Shown here: positions 1-12,646 of the stretch, piece by piece | Layout: each line of letters opens with the position of its first letter | Numbering within the stretch: the first letter of the stretch is position 1 | IMG/VR virus record: IMGVR_UViG_2531839662_000020 | Length of the DNA: 12,646 bases | Strand: one strand, 5' to 3' | Source of the DNA: a virus | Taxonomy: Duplodnaviria; Heunggongvirae; Uroviricota; Caudoviricetes | The notes under the pieces: generated by a model | Seen by the model: the letters and a program-made list of their open reading frames with translations, nothing else | The model's database searches: none | Told to the model about the DNA's origin: nothing | Translations under genes and position numbers: made by a program

Positions 1-474
1 AGTTTGCTCCTGCCATAACGTGAAGAAGCAATGACCTGGTGGTCCGTGACTTCCCTACGCTGGCATTATCCAGATCAGGTGATACGGGTATTTCTTACTG
101 ATTTTTGTTATCAGTTGATAATTAATAAGTTTTTCAGCAAACAAGAATTAAAAACTTCAAAACTGACCACACAACTGACCACACATTTTGTTGAAGCTCT
201 ACGAACAAAGACGAACAATAACAAACAAAAGGGAAATTTGCTGGCAGTTTTGCTTAACCGTTATCATTTTTCGGCTATCCGTTATCAAGCTGGTGGATGA
301 TCACGGATAACCCGTTATGGGAATCCCCATATCGGCATCATGCCCACCAGCATGAAGTATTTTTCGCGGATGTAAAAATTTGACGGGGCGGGCGGTCCCA
401 TAAGCAATGGGGGGGTAGGGATTCCGCTCCCCCCCCCTCCCGAATGCAATTTTTCTTATATATATACAAAACAG

Positions 475-4510: not shown

Positions 4511-5718
4511 TCTTTTTCACCTTTAATTTCCACAGTCTGCTTCCATGCCTGGCTGAACTCGTCGCCACCTTCACGCGGCGGCATTCCCTCACGCTCACGG
4601 GCTTCGTTCGGATTCATGATCCCGTTCTTAATCCCTTTCTCATACGTGGCGTAACGTTCAGTAGGTGTGGCGCGCAGTAAATCGGCTGAATCAAACTCAA
4701 CCAGATAACGGGTACCAGGTACGGGAGAAGCCACCAGCAAAGCGGCCTTGATTTGCTGTTCGAAGTTCGCCAGCCACGGACGCATTGTCATAGTCAGAAA
4801 CGCGCGGCTTGCCTCACTGAAATTGCTGTAGGTGCTGTTGCTGTATTCCTGCAGAAAAATCGGCGACACGTTGAACATCCGGGCGATGTCTTCAATGGAG
4901 AAGCGACGGGAGGCCAGCCATTCCGCATCCTGGTTACTCATCCCCAGTTGCTTGTAATCCATGCCCCCTTCAAGGATTGGCGTTTTTCCGGCATTTTTCG
5001 CCCCCTTGTAGCGTTCCAGTGCGTCTAATGCCTGTTTACCTTTCACGCCGTCCAGCCATTCGCCTGACGTGATAATCCCTGCCGCCATCATGCCATCTTT
5101 CATAATGCTGGCTCCGTGACGCTGTTGAGCAAGGCCAAGCCCCAGCGCCTCACGGCAAATCGTGATGGGGGAGCGTCCCAGAAAGCCATCATCCGAGGCA
5201 TAGCGGAGATGCAGAACTTCTTCCTGTAAATACGTGCGCACCGTTCCTGTACAGGGTTCGGTGATGGTATAGCGGTATTTGTGTGCGCCTGTGCGTTCCG
5301 GTACAACACACCCCGGCGCATAAGGATGAAGTGATTTTGGCTGACCGTCCCGCCCCCATTCAATAACCGCATAGGCGTTACCGTTCAGCAGGCAGTGACG
5401 CATCATTGTGCGTTTAAACTGGTAAGGTGTCTGGCACGAATTAGGCTGCTCATTCAGCAGAATATCTACCGGATGACTGTCCAGCCATTCCCGCGCCTCC
5501 CTGCCCTTGTCATTACGTACCAGATACAGATAACACGGCATCGTGGCCACCGCCTCAGCGATGACGGAAACCGCGTTCATCACTGCGGGCAATGATTCAG
5601 CCGTCCCGGCAGAAACATATTCTCCGGATCCGGTATTCGGTACGCCGGACAGCACCAGAAAATCATCAATGGACAGGTTACGTTGCTCGCTTTTTTTACG
5701 ACTAAAAGGCCACCACAT
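4504..5718 (-). CDS. Portal protein, HK97 family-like
   Basis: About 404 aa when started at the ATG at 5718 (MWWPFSRKK...), 1 nt after the protease stop. Size and position between protease and connector fit a portal. The upstream 73 codons of the track ORF overlap the protease gene and are rejected. Confidence 0.8.
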   Translation of the reverse strand: MWWPFSRKKSEQRNLSIDDFLVLSGVPNTGSGEYVSAGTAESLPAVMNAVSVIAEAVATMPCYLYLVRNDKGREAREWLDSHPVDILLNEQPNSCQTPYQFKRTMMRHCLLNGNAYAVIEWGRDGQPKSLHPYAPGCVVPERTGAHKYRYTITEPCTGTVRTYLQEEVLHLRYASDDGFLGRSPITICREALGLGLAQQRHGASIMKDGMMAAGIITSGEWLDGVKGKQALDALERYKGAKNAGKTPILEGGMDYKQLGMSNQDAEWLASRRFSIEDIARMFNVSPIFLQEYSNSTYSNFSEASRAFLTMTMRPWLANFEQQIKAALLVASPVPGTRYLVEFDSADLLRATPTERYATYEKGIKNGIMNPNEAREREGMPPREGGDEFSQAWKQTVEIKGEKDE

Positions 5719-7504: not shown

Positions 7505-7653
7505 GAAGGTTTTCTCGTATTGGTTAAGATTCAGGACGTGAAACCAACACGGAGGGAGCGCCGCCCGACACTCTCGGCATCTCGCAGATCAACCCGGCAT
7601 CGCGCAGGGGGTCAGGCGGCATTGTGGCGGCTCACGTCTGAGTGCCACACGCC

Positions 7654-7726
7654 AACATATACATAAAAATCAGTATGTAAACATCAGCCAGAATCACCGA
7701 ACAACCTGGAACAACCACGAACAAAT
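7654..7726 (-). promoter_or_regulatory. Candidate activator-dependent late promoter for the capsid operon
   Basis: On the minus strand: -35 TTTACA (7676-7681), 16-bp spacer, -10 TATGTT (7654-7659). Upstream are three direct repeats GGTTGTTC / GGTTGTTC / ATTTGTTC with 10-bp phasing (plus-strand GAACAACC at 7699-7706 and 7709-7716, GAACAAAT at 7719-7726). Confidence 0.35.
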
Positions 7727-7741
7727 AATTTACAAAACCTG

Positions 7742-7770
7742 AAAAAAAGACCTGGAGAAAATCCAGGCCT
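7742..7770 (-). terminator. Rho-independent terminator ending the early/replication operon
   Basis: On the minus-strand transcript: stem 7762-7770 pairs with 7748-7756 (9 bp, one mismatch), loop 7757-7761, then a U7 run (plus-strand A7 at 7742-7748). Lies 9 nt after the stop of the 82-aa gene. Confidence 0.65.
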
Positions 7771-7778
7771 TTATCGCT

Positions 7779-8027
7779 TTATTGTTTCACTGGATCCCGC
7801 ATTCTGCGTCTTATTTTCCACAGATATTCGATCATCGCTTCCACCTGCTCACGATTGGTTGCGAAAATTTCCCCGGTCAGTGAGCTGCGCAGAAAATCAT
7901 GATGATCCACAACAAACAACGCATCGGAAGAAAGCAGACGGCGATATTTTTTTGCTGTCGTGGTTTCCAGATCATCAAAACCATGAAACTTTTTATGTTG
8001 CTGGACTTCTTCAAATGTCACTGGCAT
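7779..8027 (-). CDS. Hypothetical protein, 82 aa, translationally coupled to the ProQ/FinO gene
   Basis: ATG start at 8027 overlaps the upstream gene's 3' end by 10 nt. No family recognised. Followed by the terminator. Confidence 0.5.
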   Translation of the reverse strand: MPVTFEEVQQHKKFHGFDDLETTTAKKYRRLLSSDALFVVDHHDFLRSSLTGEIFATNREQVEAMIEYLWKIRRRMRDPVKQ

Positions 8028-8560
8028 GTATCCCCCTTTGCTGCCCGGCGCTGGCGCTTGTGCTTCTCATTCAGCGCCATCAGCCGCGTTTCTGCCTCCT
8101 GCTGTTCCTGTGGTGTCACTTCCCCACATGGCTGGCCTTTCAGGTCGTATCGTACCCCACCAGCAACCAGGGCGCGGTAATAGCGCGGAGACTGCGCATA
8201 AGATGCCAGCGTCGCACGTAATGCCCCCGGCCCGAATGCCAGCCCCCTGACGGCGAGATCCTGCATCAGGTCGTCGAATATCCCCACCTTAAGCGGCTTC
8301 GGTGCTTCCCTGTTGAATAAGTCAGGCCACATCTCAGTGAGGCGGTTAACGCGCCTGCGGTTTTTGCGCTGGCGTTTGGTCATATGCCGCCACGGTGTCA
8401 CCCCTGTGGGCTGCCCTTTGCGGCTCTGCTGTGCGTTCTGATTGCCGGGTATCACTTTATGCGCCGATGTGGTTTTATCCCGCTCTTGCGCCGCCTGCGT
8501 CGTTTTCTGCGGCGTGCCGTAAATGCCTTTCGGTTTTCGGTTAATGGTCAGCTTTGTCAT
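8018..8560 (-). CDS. ProQ/FinO-domain RNA-binding protein with basic N-terminal extension
   Basis: C-terminal two-thirds (WPDLFNREAPKPLKVGIFDDL...LRATLASYAQSPRYYRALVAGGVRYDLKGQPCGEVTPQEQQEA) matches the ProQ/FinO N-terminal domain pattern recalled from E. coli ProQ. N-terminal about 70 aa is Lys/Arg/Gln-rich. AGGGGAAGG RBS. Confidence 0.75.
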   Translation of the reverse strand: MTKLTINRKPKGIYGTPQKTTQAAQERDKTTSAHKVIPGNQNAQQSRKGQPTGVTPWRHMTKRQRKNRRRVNRLTEMWPDLFNREAPKPLKVGIFDDLMQDLAVRGLAFGPGALRATLASYAQSPRYYRALVAGGVRYDLKGQPCGEVTPQEQQEAETRLMALNEKHKRQRRAAKGDTCQ

Positions 8561-9241: not shown

Positions 9242-11365
9242 TTAATCTTCTGCCTCAGGCTGGAACATCAGCACGTAAAAAACATGCTGCTTCCCCCCAA
9301 TTTTGCCGAGCGCCTTTTTCTTGTAACGGCGATCGTTACCCGCTTCCAGCATTCCGGCAGCACTCAACGCGCGGGCAAAGTGAGACGGATTAAATCCCTG
9401 TGCTATCTCACCCTCAAATACATGCGGGAACGTGTAAAAACGGAACTCGTCATCTTCGTTTCTGATACTCCCCTTTCTGTATCCGGCAAGTTCTTTAATC
9501 GGTAAATCACGCTCGTCGGTATTGGGCCACGGAAGGTATCTGCTGAATCCGAACGACGCTAAAAAAGCTTCTGCCTGTTCAACCATCTGTTTAAATTCCC
9601 TGTTACCCGTGCCGAACTCCTTCACCCAGGCATTAAAATTATGCTGTATGGCATCGCGGCATTCCTGCTCATCCCAGCCAGTAACATGACCTGAAAGCAC
9701 AAGCGCGGCCTCCAGTATGGCAAATCGCTCCCCCACACGGTGAACCTGTTCGCCGTAGCTCTCCGGTATCAGGTTGCGCCACCGCTCACGGCATGTCCTT
9801 ACCGTGTCCTTTGCCTCCTGCTGGTGTTCTGCCAGCCATTTAACCCACTCACGACCCGCCGCCCCGTGATTTTCTGTCCAGGCATCCTTTAACGCGTCTG
9901 CGTGCGCCTTTCCGGTGCTGTATTCGTGAAATTGCGTGGCTTTTTCCATCGGAACGTTAAGCAGGCGGACAAGCTGCCCCGCTTTGACTTTTATCCCCTC
10001 CGTTTTGAGGAATGTCTCAACGTCCATTTCTCCGGTGCTGATTGCCACCGTGCGCCAGTGTTTGATCTCCCTGTTGCCGCCGTCCTTCGCCCCCTGTAAT
10101 TTCCCCGAACCGTTAAACAGCGTATAGGCTGACGTGGACACCTCCCGCGCGTTTCCGGCCTGGCCTATTTCATCCAGGGGTAAAAGCCCGTCATTGTGTG
10201 CCTCTGCTTCGTTGGCGATACCTAACGCTGTGCCGTACCAGGTCAGCCGCTGCGCGTCCGGCTCTCCCCATAAACTTGATGCGATGTTCTGTGTGGTGGT
10301 TTTCCCTGCCGATGACTGTTCGAAAAGATGTACCCCGAAGCCGTCAGCGCCCACCAGCCCGATTAATGGTGCGGATAACGATACCGCCACACCCAGCATC
10401 ATGGACGGATTACCACCAGCCAGCCGCGCAACGATATCGCGCCAGCCCTCCGCCGTTCCTGCCACGGAATAGCCATTAACAGCAGCCGTTTTTCCGGTAA
10501 ACAGGACTGGCTTTTCGCAATCACCAATGACCGAACCGTCCGGCATGATGTACGCGCCAAAATGCCAGCCCGTTGTTGTGCTTAACTGCCATTCCTCATG
10601 GCTTCCGCTTAACTGCATCCAGTCAGCCAGGATAGCCCTGTATTTACCGTTGGTTGTTACGTTCAGTCCGTGGTCTTTCAGCAACCGCCAGCCGTCACGG
10701 TCGCCAATGCCACCGCACGGAACCGCCATTGTGATGACTTCATGGTTTGCTAATTTTTTCCAGCGCATCACGCGGTAATGCTCTTTACCGATTGTCCCCG
10801 TTCCCAGTAGTTCAAGCGGGGAACATAACCACGTCTCAGGCCGGATAATTTCGCCTGACTGCTTATCCACTTTTGGCGTTACCCAGAAAACACCATCGGC
10901 GCGACTTTCAACGCGGGGCTTTAATTCATCATCGCCCTGGATTTCTGTGATTTTTTTCTTTAAGGGCAACACCAGACTTTCCCCGCGCTCGTATTCGTCT
11001 TTGAGGCGAGGCAACTGGTCGGATAAATCCGCCGGGCTGATGTCAGTTATCCCCGCGTATTCGTATACGGTCTTCACGCCAGCCACAGCCAGCAACGTGA
11101 CGATCTGTGTAAGGCTACGTTCAGTGATGTGCCCTGCGCGGTAAACACGCACACACTGACGGCTATCATCAATAATTTGATAACCGGTAATATCTTTCAG
11201 GTGTTCATCTGACAGAACGACAGGCGGCACATTGTCGGCGGCAATATGCTTACCTGCCCATTCCTGCCACTCTTTCGCATGGCTCCACGCATCACTACCC
11301 GCAAAGATGATAACCTCCGTCATTTTGTCGGCTGGCTGGTGCTTTAAGTTTGGTGCGCGCTTCAT
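9242..11365 (-). CDS. Replicative primase-helicase (toprim-like N-terminus, P-loop NTPase core; DUF927-like)
   Basis: 707 aa. Walker A-like SSAGKTTT in the central region. Overall resemblance to satellite and prophage primase/helicase replication proteins. ATGA overlap with the upstream small gene. Followed by iterons. Confidence 0.8.
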   Translation of the reverse strand: MKRAPNLKHQPADKMTEVIIFAGSDAWSHAKEWQEWAGKHIAADNVPPVVLSDEHLKDITGYQIIDDSRQCVRVYRAGHITERSLTQIVTLLAVAGVKTVYEYAGITDISPADLSDQLPRLKDEYERGESLVLPLKKKITEIQGDDELKPRVESRADGVFWVTPKVDKQSGEIIRPETWLCSPLELLGTGTIGKEHYRVMRWKKLANHEVITMAVPCGGIGDRDGWRLLKDHGLNVTTNGKYRAILADWMQLSGSHEEWQLSTTTGWHFGAYIMPDGSVIGDCEKPVLFTGKTAAVNGYSVAGTAEGWRDIVARLAGGNPSMMLGVAVSLSAPLIGLVGADGFGVHLFEQSSAGKTTTQNIASSLWGEPDAQRLTWYGTALGIANEAEAHNDGLLPLDEIGQAGNAREVSTSAYTLFNGSGKLQGAKDGGNREIKHWRTVAISTGEMDVETFLKTEGIKVKAGQLVRLLNVPMEKATQFHEYSTGKAHADALKDAWTENHGAAGREWVKWLAEHQQEAKDTVRTCRERWRNLIPESYGEQVHRVGERFAILEAALVLSGHVTGWDEQECRDAIQHNFNAWVKEFGTGNREFKQMVEQAEAFLASFGFSRYLPWPNTDERDLPIKELAGYRKGSIRNEDDEFRFYTFPHVFEGEIAQGFNPSHFARALSAAGMLEAGNDRRYKKKALGKIGGKQHVFYVLMFQPEAED

Positions 11366-11676
11366 TTTGCCTTTCCCCGTTCACGAATAATTTCACGTAC
11401 TGCCTTAATGCGTTCCATTCCTGTAACGCGCATGATTCTGTCGATGTCGCTTAATTCTGCTGGTGGTGCTTTACTTACCAAGGTGAACTCCCTGTCAAAG
11501 CGCATATGTGACGACACGCAGGGATGCGCATAACCTTCGCGGATATAGGTCACACGAAAATCATCGACGGTTTTGATCGTTATCGTGCTGCCGTATTTAT
11601 CCTGGAAAATATCGCCGGGGCGGATTTCAGGCCGAGCGGGGCCGCTGGCAGTAAAGCCAGAATTTTTCTTTTTCAT
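11362..11676 (-). CDS. Hypothetical protein, 104 aa
   Basis: ATG with GGAG upstream. Stop overlaps the primase-helicase start (ATGA). Basic C-terminus. No family confidently recognised. Confidence 0.55.
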   Translation of the reverse strand: MKKKNSGFTASGPARPEIRPGDIFQDKYGSTITIKTVDDFRVTYIREGYAHPCVSSHMRFDREFTLVSKAPPAELSDIDRIMRVTGMERIKAVREIIRERGKAK

Positions 11677-11681
11677 GTTTT

Positions 11682-11900
11682 TTACTCCAGAGGCAGCTTT
11701 TTAGCGGCGAGCTCAATATCAGATGTCAGAGAAACCTGTGTATTTGCCAGGTCTAACAACAAAGAAATAAGAATTTCTTCTCTGCTATCGGATTTATCGG
11801 TGCTAAGGCTGTTCATCCACATATTGACGACTTCCCTGATTTTTTTCGCAGAGTGCAGGGCTTCAAATGCCAGGTCTTCAATATCATGTTTATTTCGCAT
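11682..11900 (-). CDS. Hypothetical protein, about 72 aa (start uncertain: 11900, 11915 or 11930)
   Basis: Track ORF 11682-11930 has a TTG start. The in-frame ATG at 11900 is preceded by a G-rich SD-like run. Overlaps the 3' end of the upstream gene. Predicted helical. Confidence 0.45.
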   Translation of the reverse strand: MRNKHDIEDLAFEALHSAKKIREVVNMWMNSLSTDKSDSREEILISLLLDLANTQVSLTSDIELAAKKLPLE

Positions 11901-12252
11901 AATCGCCCCCGCCATTTTCACAATCAGCAATCAGGATGGCTTTTGCCTCATTCAGCGCCATATCAGCACTAAATTGCATAACAGCCAGTGAGTGAGGAAC
12001 GAAAGCCCCGGCATATTCTGTTTCGCTGGTGGCCTCAATGGTAATCACACGCGGTTGTGCCGTGCTCAGGGCGATAAAACGCCAGATGTATTTATTCAGG
12101 TTGTGCAAGTCCCGCCCTTGCGGGTGTGTGGTATGATTTAACATAGCTACCTCGATAATCTTGCTATCGTTGGTGGTTAGAAGCCCGGTTAGTGTTAGCG
12201 CACTGCCGGGTTTCGTCGTTTGTATTTCAATAAAACCATTGGTGTGTTTCAT
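11890..12252 (-). CDS. Hypothetical protein, 120 aa, first gene of the early operon (alternative start at 12144 gives 84 aa)
   Basis: 3' portion of the 247-aa track ORF. The part upstream of 12252 is antisense to the plus-strand gene and low-complexity, so is rejected. ATG at 12252 lacks an SD; the ATG at 12144 has GAGGT 5 nt upstream. Confidence 0.45.
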   Translation of the reverse strand: MKHTNGFIEIQTTKPGSALTLTGLLTTNDSKIIEVAMLNHTTHPQGRDLHNLNKYIWRFIALSTAQPRVITIEATSETEYAGAFVPHSLAVMQFSADMALNEAKAILIADCENGGGDYAK

Positions 12253-12340
12253 GTTATTTTGGAGTGAAACACACGTCAAGCCTTTTTTGTATTTCTTTTT
12301 TGTGTATACTGAAACACACCAAATTTGAGGAGTTTCAGTT
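12241..12340. promoter_or_regulatory. Divergent control region with three copies of TGAAACACAC(C/G)
   Basis: Copies at 12241-12251 (inverted, overlapping the ATG at 12252), 12264-12274 and 12310-12320. The first two form an 11-bp-arm inverted repeat with a 13-bp spacer. Plus-strand -10-like TATACT at 12305-12310 and GAGGAG RBS at 12326-12331. Confidence 0.5.
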
Positions 12341-12646
12341 ATGGCGACTACCAACAAAAACGCTAAATCACAATTGACCACCGTCAGAGTCCCCCACGAT
12401 GTTATGGAGGGCATGGAATCCGTAAAACTGGACGGCGAAAGCAACGCCGGATTCATAGTAACCGCCATGCGCGGTGAGATCGCCCGCCGCCAGGCAGAAG
12501 GAAGCGGAGAAAATCCCCTGGTTTCTTCGCTCGATGCACTGGCGCAGGTGGAAAAAATTGGAGTCAAGGCTGCCGAGGAGATCGGGCAACTCGTCGCCGT
12601 CGCGCGTGAAGAACTCCAGCGCCGCAAGGCCAAAGAATCAGAATAA
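12341..12646 (+). CDS. Putative small DNA-binding regulator (possible ribbon-helix-helix fold)
   Basis: 101 aa. Strong GAGGAG RBS 9 nt upstream of ATG. Only plus-strand gene, divergent from the early operon. N-terminal LTTVRVPHDVMEGMESV fits a beta-strand-then-helix RHH pattern; fold assignment is tentative. Confidence 0.6.
   Translation: MATTNKNAKSQLTTVRVPHDVMEGMESVKLDGESNAGFIVTAMRGEIARRQAEGSGENPLVSSLDALAQVEKIGVKAAEEIGQLVAVAREELQRRKAKESE

What the first reader, a model, noticed from the sequence alone, without database searches (positions are those of the whole stretch)
11362..12252. Three small uncharacterised genes at the head of the early operon
Proteins of 120, about 72 and 104 aa are tightly packed with overlapping stops and starts, and the last is coupled to the primase-helicase by an ATGA overlap. 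None matches a family I recognise. This is the position where satellites and prophages place helper-derepression, host-takeover, interference or anti-defence functions. It is the best place in the window to look for undescribed biology, but nothing in the sequence shows what these proteins do.
Basis: inference. Interest (0 to 1): 0.65.

Follow-up and report, generated by a model that had tools for sequence, protein, structure and literature searches.

The report
Antisense-RNA-guarded head of a satellite operon
The three "unknown" genes lead the replication operon of an E. coli phage satellite: the first is a shortened, fused copy of a known cell-division-inhibitor gene overlapped by a conserved, apparently undescribed antisense RNA gene, the third belongs to a known virulence-regulator family, and only the middle one is a real orphan.

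Summary
The ORFs exist and lead the early operon of a capsid-forming PICI satellite, but "three unrecognisable proteins of 120/72/104 aa" is only partly right.

- **ORF A.** The 120-aa start (ATG 12252) sits inside the -10 box of the operon promoter and is absent from relatives. The likely start is ATG 12144, giving 84 aa. It belongs to the P1 Icd / P4 Kil family but is a hybrid. A 187-nt deletion between two 12-nt repeats fused Icd residues 1-41 to the tail of the next gene. The family's EAR...FAAR half is lost.
- **Antisense RNA.** An ~84-nt RNA gene lies on the opposite strand at 12145-12228. It has its own -10 box, two hairpins and a terminator, and it covers the leader and ribosome-binding site of ORF A. 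It recurs in 41 loci (41 of 76 sources searched), with 15 covarying pairs. Pairing is 94.8% on this strand against 80.7% on the mRNA strand. No Rfam family reaches threshold.
- **ORF C.** It is DUF4222, 49% identical to the EHEC regulator RgdR. Its core is a KOW/Tudor-like barrel, and it is ATGA-coupled to the replicase in all 35 loci where the chain reaches one.
- **ORF B.** It is a narrow orphan, a helical hairpin in a hypervariable slot.

Inferred mechanism: RNA-based silencing of the operon, as in P1 C4-icd, P4 CI-kil and FinOP.

The parts
12251..12279 (-). Early-operon promoter: -35 TTGACG (12279-12274), 17-nt spacer, -10 TAACAT (12256-12251). The ATG annotated as the start of the 120-aa ORF (12252-12250) overlaps the -10.
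   Evidence: 9/12 match, the only site found.: -35 TTGACG/TTGAAG and -10 TAACAT/TAAATT/TAGGTT are conserved in position in L002-L005, while the ATG is lost in L003-L006.
12239..12322 (.). Three copies of a 10-13-nt operator-like site: GTGTGTTTCA at 12242-12251, and its complement TGAAACACAC at 12265-12274 and 12310-12322. Two copies bracket the -10 and spacer of the early promoter. One lies just upstream of the divergent YlcI/YnfO gene.
   Evidence: inverted repeats I1, I3, 100% complementary. In related islands the repeat changes as a set (GTGCGATTCA in L004, GTGTATTTCA in L003). The binding protein was not identified.
12145..12244 (-). About 100-nt 5' leader of the early mRNA, previously read as codons 1-36 of ORF A. 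It ends with the Shine-Dalgarno GAGG (12153-12150).
   Evidence: Inferred from promoter position, relatives' gene starts and upstream stops in other loci.
12129..12137 (+). Promoter of the antisense RNA: extended -10 TGgTATGAT, embedded in codons 3-5 (N-H-T) of the Icd-like ORF.
   Evidence: A TAnnnT hexamer lies 7 nt upstream of the modelled 5' end in all 30 distinct variants (TATGAT, TATAAT, TATAGT, TAGACT, TATGCT, TACACT). The transcription start was not measured.
12145..12228 (+). Cis-antisense small RNA gene of about 84 nt. Hairpin 1 is 12145-12178 and contains the anti-Shine-Dalgarno CCUC. Hairpin 2 is 12180-12214, a GC-rich terminator stem followed by the tail UUUCGUCGUUUGUAUUU. The RNA is fully complementary to the leader and ribosome-binding site of the first ORF.
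   Evidence: - Fold: -35.4 kcal/mol, z -5.3, against z -1.8 for the mRNA strand.
- Model R1 finds it in 41 of 76 sources, always antisense to the operon, including Providencia and Edwardsiella.
- 94.8% of cells paired, 15 pairs with compensatory changes against 6.9 +/- 1.1 in shuffles, 0/500 shuffles as high; slid controls 32-49%.
- 94.8% paired on this strand against 80.7% on the other, with 97 G-U cells.
- Loop entropy 1.28 bits against stem 0.38 bits.
11890..12144 (-). ORF A revised: 84 aa, a hybrid protein. Residues 1-41 are the N-terminal half of an Icd/Kil-family protein. Residues 42-84 are the C-terminal 43 aa of the neighbouring 'gene 2' family.
   Evidence: NF033153 matches only model positions 1-29 of 48. 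Intact four-gene versions are in L007, L008 and L023.
12022..12033 (-). Deletion junction GCCACCAGCGAA (encodes A-T-S-E). It is the single surviving copy of a 12-nt direct repeat that lies 187 nt apart in intact relatives.
   Evidence: alignment; repeat spacing 187 nt in L007. The two parental ORFs are in different frames, so a 187-nt loss joins them into one ORF. Profile comparison gives no paralogy between the two parents (probability 0.3%).
11682..11900 (-). ORF B, 72 aa, acidic (pI 5.1). Predicted antiparallel two-helix hairpin. It occupies a hypervariable slot.
   Evidence: - 13 near-identical E. coli proteins only.
- 9 representatives in an exhaustive search of 1.84 billion proteins.
- AF2 pLDDT 79, helices 2-32 and 40-67.
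- Foldseek gives only generic hairpins, E > 0.1.
- At least 3 unrelated families occupy the same position in related loci.
11362..11676 (-). ORF C, 104 aa, basic (pI 9.9), RgdR/DUF4222 family. KOW/Tudor/SH3-like five-strand barrel (residues ~20-70) plus two C-terminal helices. Its stop overlaps the replicase start (ATGA).
   Evidence: - PF13973, 65.4 bits.
- 49% identity to RgdR/ECs1581 over 71 aa, E 8e-23.
- AF2 pLDDT 77, core about 90.
- Foldseek: Spt5 KOW top hit, E 0.01.
- -4 overlap with the replicase in all 35 loci where the ORF chain reaches one.
9242..11365 (-). DUF927 primase-helicase (707 aa), the gene the three ORFs lead into.
   Evidence: PF06048 157.9 bits; phrog_1139 DNA primase 5e-173.
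8018..8560 (-). ProQ/FinO-domain protein (180 aa), further down the same operon. Candidate chaperone for the antisense RNA; this is a hypothesis only.
   Evidence: PF04352 87.2 bits. The NCBIfam FinO and ProQ models score below their cutoffs. Homologues were found in 11 of the asRNA-bearing loci searched.

Best explanation
The interval is the regulatory head of the replication/packaging operon of a capsid-forming PICI satellite.

Transcription starts at a sigma-70 promoter flanked by three operator-like repeats and produces a leader of about 100 nt. On the opposite strand an ~84-nt RNA is made from its own extended -10 promoter, which lies inside the first ORF. The RNA folds into two hairpins, the second an intrinsic terminator. 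It is perfectly complementary to the leader and Shine-Dalgarno of the first ORF.

In the uninduced island this RNA pairs with the few leaky early transcripts and blocks translation of the Icd/Kil-type first gene. The following genes (B, the RgdR-family protein C and the primase-helicase) are chained by overlapping or closely spaced stops and starts. An untranslated leader gene should therefore silence them as well, through loss of translational coupling, Rho-dependent polarity or duplex cleavage. When the helper phage induces the island, early transcripts outnumber the antisense RNA and the chain is translated.

In this island the first gene is a deletion hybrid. It keeps the antisense-controlled start and the coupling to ORF B but has lost the conserved C-terminal half of the Icd domain. 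It probably serves as a translated leader rather than an active division inhibitor.

ORF C is a small basic KOW/Tudor-like protein of the RgdR family. Because it stays coupled to replicases of different types, it most likely acts on a host component (transcription machinery or nucleoid) rather than on one replicase. ORF B is an interchangeable accessory cassette of unknown role.

Shown computationally: gene boundaries, family membership, the deletion, and the conserved structured antisense RNA gene with its promoter and terminator. Inferred: that the RNA is expressed, that it represses translation, the polar effect on downstream genes, and all protein functions.
For: Antisense RNA gene:
- Strand-specific stability.
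- Recurrence in 41 of 76 sources, including two other genera, always antisense and upstream of DUF4222.
- Covariation: 15 compensatory pairs against 6.9 in shuffles, 0/500.
- G-U asymmetry: 94.8% paired against 80.7% on the other strand.
- A conserved TAnnnT box 7 nt upstream in every variant, despite coding constraints.
- A U-rich tail on this strand only.
- Variable loops on conserved stems.
- The block 12022-12221 is the unit shared by most of the 1766 of 5426 E. coli genomes that match the region.

Gene start at 12144.

Icd/Kil homology.

Precedents:
- The P1 record annotates C4 RNA target sites as 'repression of icd ant translation' and icd as 'required for expression of ant'.
- P4 CI RNA prevents expression of its replication genes by premature termination (PMC4825925).

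Coupling chain: overlaps of -11, +5 and -4 here, and similar in related loci.

RgdR: non-specific DNA binding and pleiotropic effects on LEE1 and motility (PMC3378721). Fold.
Against: - No expression data. The RNA's 5' end, abundance and effect are predictions.
- The covariation alignment was fitted to the model, which favours the structure.
- The SymR resemblance (33.6 bits against gathering score 61) was not reproduced on three other variants.
- About half of the DUF4222 loci examined show no hit to the RNA model, so the control is not universal.
- Gram-negative PICI induction is attributed to AlpA (10.1101/2022.09.08.507074). The papers I read mention no RNA layer.
- The hybrid first gene could simply be damage.
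Confidence: 0.6

Rival explanations
1. Type I toxin-antitoxin or abortive-infection module. The Icd-like protein is a growth-arresting toxin and the antisense RNA is its antitoxin. The pair stabilises the island or kills the cell when an incoming phage perturbs it, rather than controlling replication genes. In this window the toxin has been disarmed by the deletion.
For: - The geometry matches SymR/SymE: the antisense RNA starts next to the start codon and covers the ribosome-binding site.
- P1 Icd is annotated as an inhibitor of cell division.
- In ECOR61 a prophage system with an Icd-like protein, a primase and four other genes causes cell death when phage orf24 is expressed, and removing the Icd-like gene abolishes it.
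- Loss of the conserved C-terminal half here fits selection against toxicity.
Against: - Not exclusive with the main explanation, since both share the same RNA-mRNA step.
- No PADLOC match.
- The Icd-like gene is always first in a tightly coupled replication operon, as in P1 and P4, where its translation has a regulatory role.
- Toxicity of the PICI proteins is untested.
Confidence: 0.25
2. One reading: three free-standing, uncharacterised proteins that carry out helper derepression, host takeover, interference or anti-defence, with no special regulatory RNA.
For: - ORF B sits in a slot that holds at least three unrelated families in related islands, a pattern typical of accessory or counter-defence genes.
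- ORF B is an orphan.
- The C family alters host gene expression.
Against: - A and C belong to described families.
- A's first 36 codons are leader, not protein.
- The prototype cf-PICI does not interfere with its helper.
- There are no defence or anti-defence family hits.
- The conserved antisense RNA gene is left unexplained.
Confidence: 0.1
3. The conserved structure acts in the sense strand, as a leader element of the early mRNA. It could be a C4/CI-like processed RNA, an attenuator or a protein-binding leader. On this view no antisense transcript matters.
For: - P1 C4 and P4 CI are both encoded in the sense orientation upstream of icd/kil.
- The hairpins can also form in the mRNA strand, with 80.7% of cells paired.
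Against: - 97 G-U cells become A-C mismatches in the sense strand.
- The sense fold is not better than shuffles (z -1.8).
- The U-tract follows the terminator hairpin only on the antisense strand.
- A -10 box is conserved in the antisense orientation.
- No Rfam C4 or IsrK match, even at E <= 10.
Confidence: 0.05

Closest known systems
P1 immI (C4 RNA - icd - ant) and P4 immunity (CI RNA - kil/eta - epsilon, alpha)
   Same: - The first translated gene of the operon is an Icd/Kil-family protein. P1 Icd aligns at 30-38% identity with the PICI proteins, and P4's 'cI/ash' ORF C-terminus is 42.9% identical to the Providencia member.
- A small RNA pairs with its translation-initiation region.
- Downstream genes (anti-repressor, or primase-helicase) depend on it.
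   Different: - C4 and CI are encoded on the same strand, upstream, and are processed from the operon transcript. Here the RNA is a separate convergent transcript with its own promoter and terminator.
- There is no Rfam C4 match.
- The window's Icd-like protein lacks the C-terminal half.
FinOP fertility inhibition of F-like plasmids (FinP antisense RNA, traJ leader, FinO chaperone); features recalled from general knowledge
   Same: - An antisense RNA of about 80 nt made of two hairpins, the second a terminator.
- It is complementary to the leader and ribosome-binding site of the first regulatory gene of a long operon.
- Loops vary between alleles on conserved stems.
- A FinO/ProQ-domain protein is encoded further down the same operon (window 8018-8560).
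   Different: - No Rfam FinP match at E <= 10.
- The target is an Icd-like gene, not traJ.
- The FinO-like gene is present in only some asRNA-bearing islands.
- No binding has been shown.
SymR/SymE type I toxin-antitoxin of E. coli K-12 (Rfam RF01809)
   Same: - Best Rfam match to the RNA: 33.6 bits, E 3.4e-4.
- Reciprocally, the PICI model aligns to K-12 symR starting exactly at its annotated 5' end: 18.8 bits, E 4e-5 in 351 nt.
- The RNA starts next to or over the target's start codon. Type-2 variants begin AGCCAUAAU; SymR begins AGUCAUAAC.
   Different: - The score is below the gathering threshold of 61.
- The match is not reproduced on the Sakai, type-2 or Providencia variants.
- The target protein is unrelated to SymE (no SymE Pfam hit).
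RgdR (ECs1581) of CP-933C / Sakai Sp7, the prototype cf-PICI region
   Same: - ORF C is the positional orthologue: immediately upstream of the replicase and overlapping it.
- Same Pfam family.
- 49% identity over the barrel domain.
   Different: - The C-terminal third differs (104-aa against 99-aa subtype).
- The RGD tripeptide that named RgdR is PGD here.
- This strain's LEE status and any regulatory effect are unknown.
EcCIEDL933-type capsid-forming PICIs
   Same: The island has a DUF927 replicase, HK97 capsid, protease, portal, connector, HNH, P27-type TerS and TerL, and no tail genes. AlpA and integrase lie just outside the window.
   Different: - Packaging genes are only about 76% identical at DNA level to the nearest 'phage' records.
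- The attachment site is next to rcnR.
- The head of the operon carries the deletion hybrid.

Membership tests
Icd family (P1 Icd; NCBIfam NF033153 'host cell division inhibitor Icd-like') | Score at or above the curated NCBIfam cutoff | tested here: met
   27.6 bits against cutoff 25, but only model positions 1-29 of 48 are matched.
Icd family (P1 Icd; NCBIfam NF033153 'host cell division inhibitor Icd-like') | N-terminal motif F/Y-x-W-R-F followed by a beta-strand-like segment ending in (T/S)E | tested here: met
   YIWRFIALSTAQPRVITIEATSE aligns with P1 EFIWRF...VIAATEDE and with P4 Kil.
Icd family (P1 Icd; NCBIfam NF033153 'host cell division inhibitor Icd-like') | C-terminal half with the invariant EAR ... 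(F)AAR motif | tested here: not met
   This half was removed by the 187-nt deletion and replaced by 43 aa of an unrelated neighbour.
Icd family (P1 Icd; NCBIfam NF033153 'host cell division inhibitor Icd-like') | Inhibits host cell division when expressed | not testable with these tools
   Needs expression and microscopy.
RgdR / DUF4222 (Pfam PF13973) | Pfam gathering score | tested here: met
   65.4 bits against 27, covering profile positions 1-52 of 53.
RgdR / DUF4222 (Pfam PF13973) | Sequence similarity to the characterised member ECs1581 | tested here: met
   49% identity over 71 aa, E 8e-23.
RgdR / DUF4222 (Pfam PF13973) | RGD tripeptide at residues 20-22, shown to matter for LEE activation | tested here: not met
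   The aligned residues are P-G-D (IRPGD). Position 20 is the residue whose change altered activity in PMC3378721.
RgdR / DUF4222 (Pfam PF13973) | Activates LEE1/T3S and represses motility | not testable with these tools
   Needs reporter and motility assays.
SymR antitoxin RNA (Rfam RF01809) | Rfam gathering score (61 bits) | tested here: not met
   33.6 bits for the window. No hit on three other variants.
SymR antitoxin RNA (Rfam RF01809) | Cis-antisense to the start codon and ribosome-binding site of its target, with the 5' end next to the start codon | tested here: met
   The modelled 5' end at 12145 abuts ATG 12144-12142. Type-2 variants include the anti-AUG at +4 to +6.
SymR antitoxin RNA (Rfam RF01809) | Partner gene encodes SymE | tested here: not met
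   No SymE family hit for ORF A in Pfam at E <= 0.1.
C4/CI antisense RNAs of P1, P7 and P4 (Rfam C4 family) | Match to the Rfam model; encoded on the sense strand upstream of icd/kil | tested here: not met
   No C4 hit even at E <= 10 over 11300-12646. The structure is specific to the antisense strand.
FinP/FinO system | Match to the Rfam FinP model | tested here: not met
   No FinP hit at E <= 10.
FinP/FinO system | FinO/ProQ-domain protein encoded in the controlled operon | tested here: met
   PF04352 87.2 bits against 27 for window 8018-8560. The NCBIfam FinO (64.7 against 136) and ProQ (58.6 against 127) models are below cutoff.
FinP/FinO system | The chaperone binds and stabilises the antisense RNA | not testable with these tools
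   Needs CLIP, EMSA and RNA half-life measurements.
Capsid-forming PICI (cf-PICI) | PICI core (int, alpA, replicase) plus a full capsid and packaging module, without tail or lysis genes | tested here: met
   In the near-identical UMNF18 locus the island is bounded by thiM and rcnR.
Capsid-forming PICI (cf-PICI) | Helper-dependent induction and transfer using helper tails | not testable with these tools
   Needs helper-phage experiments.

The most novel reading that the evidence does not exclude
E. coli-type PICIs carry an undescribed family of cis-antisense RNAs. Together with an island-encoded ProQ/FinO chaperone in some islands, these form a FinOP-like, RNA-based immunity switch for the whole replication/packaging operon. 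The variable hairpin loops would set island-specific immunity among the up to seven copies found in one genome. The universally replicase-coupled RgdR-family KOW/Tudor-like protein would be a host-directed factor, for example acting on RNA polymerase, Rho/NusG or S10. That would explain its pleiotropic virulence effects in EHEC.
Probability: 0.25. Interest if true: 0.8.

Novelty: new variant of a known kind. Interest (0 to 1): 0.6.

Why it matters
- **PICI silencing.** How Gram-negative PICIs stay silent and are switched on is known only in outline: AlpA, activated by the helper. A conserved antisense RNA over the first gene of the replication operon would add a post-transcriptional immunity layer. 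It would resemble those of P1, P4 and F plasmids but be built differently. The block is present in about a third of complete E. coli genomes (1766 of 5426).
- **Annotation.** The work corrects a recurrent error. The 'long N-terminal extension' of Icd-like proteins in these islands is probably leader plus an antisense RNA gene.
- **Virulence link.** The EHEC virulence regulator RgdR is tied to its native context. It is the conserved partner gene of the satellite replicase, which suggests its effect on the LEE is a side effect of a satellite function.
- **Accessory slot.** A hypervariable slot (ORF B) is identified that could be screened for host-takeover or anti-defence activities.

Tried and rejected
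- **Paralogy across the fusion.** I tested whether the tail now fused to Icd is itself Icd-like, which would make the hybrid a complete domain. Profile-profile comparison gave probability 0.3%, so the junction is microhomology only.
- **P4 Cnr.** P4 Cnr (ORF106) is the positional analogue upstream of alpha, but it has no similarity to ORF C.
- **P4 'cI' ORF against ORF A.** No BLASTP alignment. The link to P4 appears only through intact family members.
- **Rfam.** No family reaches its gathering score in the window. There are no C4, IsrK or FinP hits at E <= 10.
- **SymR homology.** It is reciprocal but weak and not reproducible on other variants. I kept it as a resemblance only.
- **Defence and structure libraries.** PADLOC gave nothing for A, B, C or the primase. 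PDB sequence searches with the DUF4222 and Icd profiles gave nothing meaningful.
- **ORF B.** No BLASTP similarity to the helical protein in the same slot of L007. The Foldseek hits are generic helical hairpins.
- **Genome-wide pattern scan.** The scan for the RNA returned mostly chance hits in cyanobacteria and others. Only Edwardsiella and Providencia were real.
- **Open-frame test for the 120-aa ORF.** It is uninformative in type-1 loci, because the frame stays open across the antisense of the YlcI gene.
- **'Decaying island'.** I first took the island to be decaying because RefSeq flags HNH and TerS as frameshifted in UMNF18. In the window both ORFs are intact, so I withdrew that.
- **Literature.** Searches for SymR with Icd, PICI with antisense RNA, and CP-933C with sRNA found no description of this RNA. 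The library is incomplete, so this is not proof of absence.

Full report
**Context.**
- The window is 99.6% identical to an island in E. coli UMNF18 between thiM and rcnR.
- In operon order the window encodes a divergent YlcI/YnfO-family gene (12341-12646, +), then on the minus strand the three ORFs of the finding.
- After them come a 707-aa DUF927 primase-helicase, SSB, a ProQ/FinO-domain protein and an 82-aa protein.
- The packaging module follows: HK97 capsid, S78 protease, portal, connector, HNH, P27-type TerS and TerL.
- AlpA and the integrase lie just beyond the window, and there are no tail genes.
- This is the architecture of capsid-forming PICIs, whose prototype is EcCIEDL933 (CP-933C / Sakai Sp7) (10.1101/2022.09.08.507074).

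**Observation.**
- The ORFs are there.
- A/B overlap by 11 nt, B/C are 5 nt apart with a GGAG, and C/primase share ATGA.
- The 120-aa reading of ORF A does not hold.
  - Its ATG (12252) overlaps the -10 hexamer of the only sigma-70-type promoter found (TTGACG-17-TAACAT, 12279-12251).
  - In five related islands the -35 and -10 are kept at this position. The ATG is kept only in L002 and is absent in L003-L006.
  - RefSeq annotates the homologue from the ATG equivalent to 12144 in three relatives (67 aa). The same hybrid is called as 84 aa in two other assemblies.
  - In type-2 and Edwardsiella loci the frame closes 3-5 codons upstream of that ATG.
  - ATG 12144 is preceded by GAGG.
- I take ORF A to be 12144-11890, 84 aa, behind a leader of about 100 nt.

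**ORF A is an Icd/Kil-family gene, and a hybrid.**
- NCBIfam NF033153 is just met (27.6 against 25 bits), but only for model positions 1-29 of 48.
- Homologue searching explained why. Ordinary relatives have a 62-73-aa protein, for example MRNHTTHPQGRDSHNLNKYIWRFIALSTAQPRVITIEATSEQEARQQSPDGCVMVFAARIRQGVHHD. A separate 79-86-aa gene follows it.
- The window carries Icd residues 1-41 joined at A-T-S-E to the last 43 residues of that second gene.
- Alignment with intact islands (L007, L008, L023) shows a 187-nt deletion between two copies of GCCACCAG(C/T)GAA. One copy remains at 12033-12022.
- The two parental genes are in different frames, so the deletion makes one ORF that still overlaps the start of ORF B.
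- The same hybrid, 94% identical, sits in the same island in two other assemblies, so it is not an assembly artefact.
- Profile comparison gives no relation between the two parents.
- The family is truly related to P1 Icd: 30-38% identity, with motifs F-x-W-R-F, T-E-x-E-A-R and F-A-A-R.
- It is also related to the C-terminal 65 aa of the old P4 'cI/ash' ORF, which I recall as the kil product. That segment is 42.9% identical to the Providencia member, E 1e-6.
- The old P4 annotation probably explains the PHROG label 'transcriptional repressor'.
- The window's protein lacks the EAR/FAAR half, so a defining part of the domain is missing.

**An antisense RNA gene.**
- A permissive Rfam scan gave one notable sub-threshold hit: SymR on the plus strand at 12145-12217 (33.6 bits, E 3.4e-4). 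That position is antisense to the leader and abuts the start codon.
- The plus strand 12145-12235 folds into two hairpins at -35.4 kcal/mol (z -5.3). The mRNA strand gives z -1.8.
- The second hairpin is followed by UUUCGUCGUUUGUAUUU on the plus strand only.
- In Sakai Sp7 the equivalent hairpin has different sequence, needs two G-U pairs that exist only on the antisense strand, and is followed by UUUGCUUUUUU.
- A covariance model built from six islands found the element in 41 of 76 sources. It was always antisense to the operon and upstream of DUF4222. The sources include Providencia heimbachae and Edwardsiella hoshinae.
- On that alignment 94.8% of cells pair, and 15 of 26 pairs show compensatory changes against 6.9 +/- 1.1 in shuffles (0/500). 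Slid controls pair at 32-49%. The alignment is fitted to the model, which favours the structure.
- The same pairs read on the mRNA strand reach only 80.7%, because 97 cells are G-U.
- Every one of 30 distinct variants has a TAnnnT hexamer 7 nt upstream of the modelled 5' end, although the hexamer itself varies. In the window it is TGgTATGAT at 12129-12137, inside codons N-H-T of the Icd-like gene.
- Two hairpin-1 types exist.
  - In type 1 (the window) the anti-Shine-Dalgarno lies in the stem and the RNA starts just after the start codon.
  - In type 2 the RNA includes the anti-AUG, and the anti-SD lies in the loop.
- Loops are much more variable than stems: 1.28 against 0.38 bits overall, and 0.94 against 0.05 for hairpin 1 in type 1.
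- The 200-bp block 12022-12221 (the RNA plus the first 41 codons) is the segment shared by most of the 1766 of 5426 complete E. coli genomes that match the region. Flanks on both sides diverge.
- No Rfam family reaches threshold, and I found no description in the searchable literature.

**How the head probably works.** The closest precedents use the same logic with a differently encoded RNA.
- In P1, C4 RNA binds sites over the icd ribosome-binding site ('repression of icd ant translation'), and icd is 'apparently required for expression of ant'.
- In P4, CI RNA prevents expression of the replication genes by premature termination (PMC4825925).
- From general knowledge, C4 acts through Rho-dependent polarity, and P4 kil/eta translation controls termination.
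- Here the RNA is a convergent cis-antisense transcript. Its shape and placement resemble FinP of F-like plasmids, a two-hairpin antisense RNA to the traJ leader (recalled, not tested).
- The island also encodes a ProQ/FinO-domain protein further down the same operon (PF04352, 87 bits), as finO lies distal in the tra operon.
- That gene is present in 11 of the asRNA-bearing loci searched but absent from many others within the DNA fetched. The link is a hypothesis.

I infer three steps:
1. The RNA blocks translation of the first gene.
2. The tightly chained downstream genes are thereby silenced in the uninduced state.
3. Induction titrates the RNA out.

None of this has been measured.

**ORF C.**
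- It is DUF4222 (65.4 bits) and the positional orthologue of RgdR (ECs1581). RgdR lies immediately upstream of the Sp7 primase and overlaps it (49% identity over 71 aa).
- RgdR activates LEE1/T3S, represses motility and binds DNA non-specifically (PMC3378721).
- Its RGD tripeptide is PGD here.
- The AF2 model (pLDDT 77, core about 90) is a five-strand barrel plus two helices.
- In all 35 related loci where the ORF chain reaches a replicase, the preceding 99/104-aa gene ends with a -4 overlap onto it. The replicase varies from 466 to 714 aa and between families.
- That constancy across replicase types argues for a host-directed or general role rather than a partnership with one replicase.
- P4 Cnr, the positional analogue, is unrelated.

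**ORF B.**
- It has no Pfam, NCBIfam or PADLOC family, and only weak hits to unannotated PHROG families (best phrog_2196, E 1.6e-4).
- It has 13 near-identical E. coli relatives. An exhaustive search of 1.84 billion proteins found 9 representatives, the most distant 37% identical.
- The model is a two-helix hairpin (pLDDT 79), and structural matches are generic.
- Across related islands the position just upstream of DUF4222 holds at least three unrelated families. ORF B is one cassette of a hypervariable slot, and its function remains open.

**Verdict.**
- The finding is real but mis-described. It is a known kind of regulatory head (an Icd/Kil leader gene under RNA control, then accessory genes, then the replicase).
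- It has a new variant of the RNA component, a lineage-specific deletion hybrid as first gene, a member of the RgdR family and one orphan.
- The antisense RNA gene is the part most worth experimental follow-up.

Noticed in passing
window 362-399: A 38-nt stretch is 97.4% identical to the annotated cos site of Stx phage phiP27. This fits the island's P27-family small terminase and suggests this is the satellite's own packaging site, close to its end.
   Followed up: no
window 8018-8560 (-): A ProQ/FinO-domain RNA-chaperone gene lies inside the satellite operon. It is conserved (72-100% identity) in 11 other asRNA-bearing islands searched. It could service the antisense RNA, as FinO does for FinP.
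   Followed up: partly
window 12239-12322: Three copies of GTGTGTTTCA / TGAAACACAC sit around the divergent promoters. The repeat sequence changes as a set between islands (GTGCGATTCA in L004, GTGTATTTCA in L003), as expected for island-specific operators. The binding protein is unknown. The neighbouring 101-aa YlcI/YnfO-family protein has a weak hit to an RHH-type transcription-factor family (PF07704, E 0.016).
   Followed up: partly
window 7505-7778, compared with L001 9651-10479: The RefSeq UMNF18 record has about 553 nt more than the window between the capsid gene and the 82-aa gene, including a 168-aa plus-strand ORF. It also flags HNH and TerS as frameshifted. In the window both are intact ORFs with full Pfam matches, so the window is not the same sequence version as that record.
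   Followed up: partly
window 12111-12124: A GC-rich inverted repeat CCCGC-CCTT-GCGGG lies in codons 7-12 of the Icd-like gene, just upstream of the antisense promoter. It is conserved in all type-1 islands and in Edwardsiella. It could be an mRNA hairpin or a protein-binding site.
   Followed up: no
L028 2427-2511 and L035 2430-2515 (first ORF of 179 aa): In some islands the type-1 head (antisense RNA plus the first 18 codons) is joined to an inserted segment and then to a second, Sakai-type Icd-like gene. The head module seems to recombine as a cassette. L046 and L047 likewise have 121-aa first ORFs with two Icd-like N-termini.
   Followed up: no
L014 (Providencia heimbachae) 4670-4753 and downstream: The same type-1 antisense RNA (85 bits) heads an operon with a P4-Kil-like first gene. 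My ORF chain for that locus found no DUF4222 gene or replicase. The RNA-plus-Icd head may also serve other kinds of element.
   Followed up: no
window 7779-8027 (-): An 82-aa protein downstream of ProQ/FinO matches phrog_1957 (1.6e-36), of unknown function. In Sakai Sp7 the corresponding neighbourhood carries the virulence regulator pchE, and in MBT-5 a PerC-family gene. This is a second variable slot of the island.
   Followed up: no
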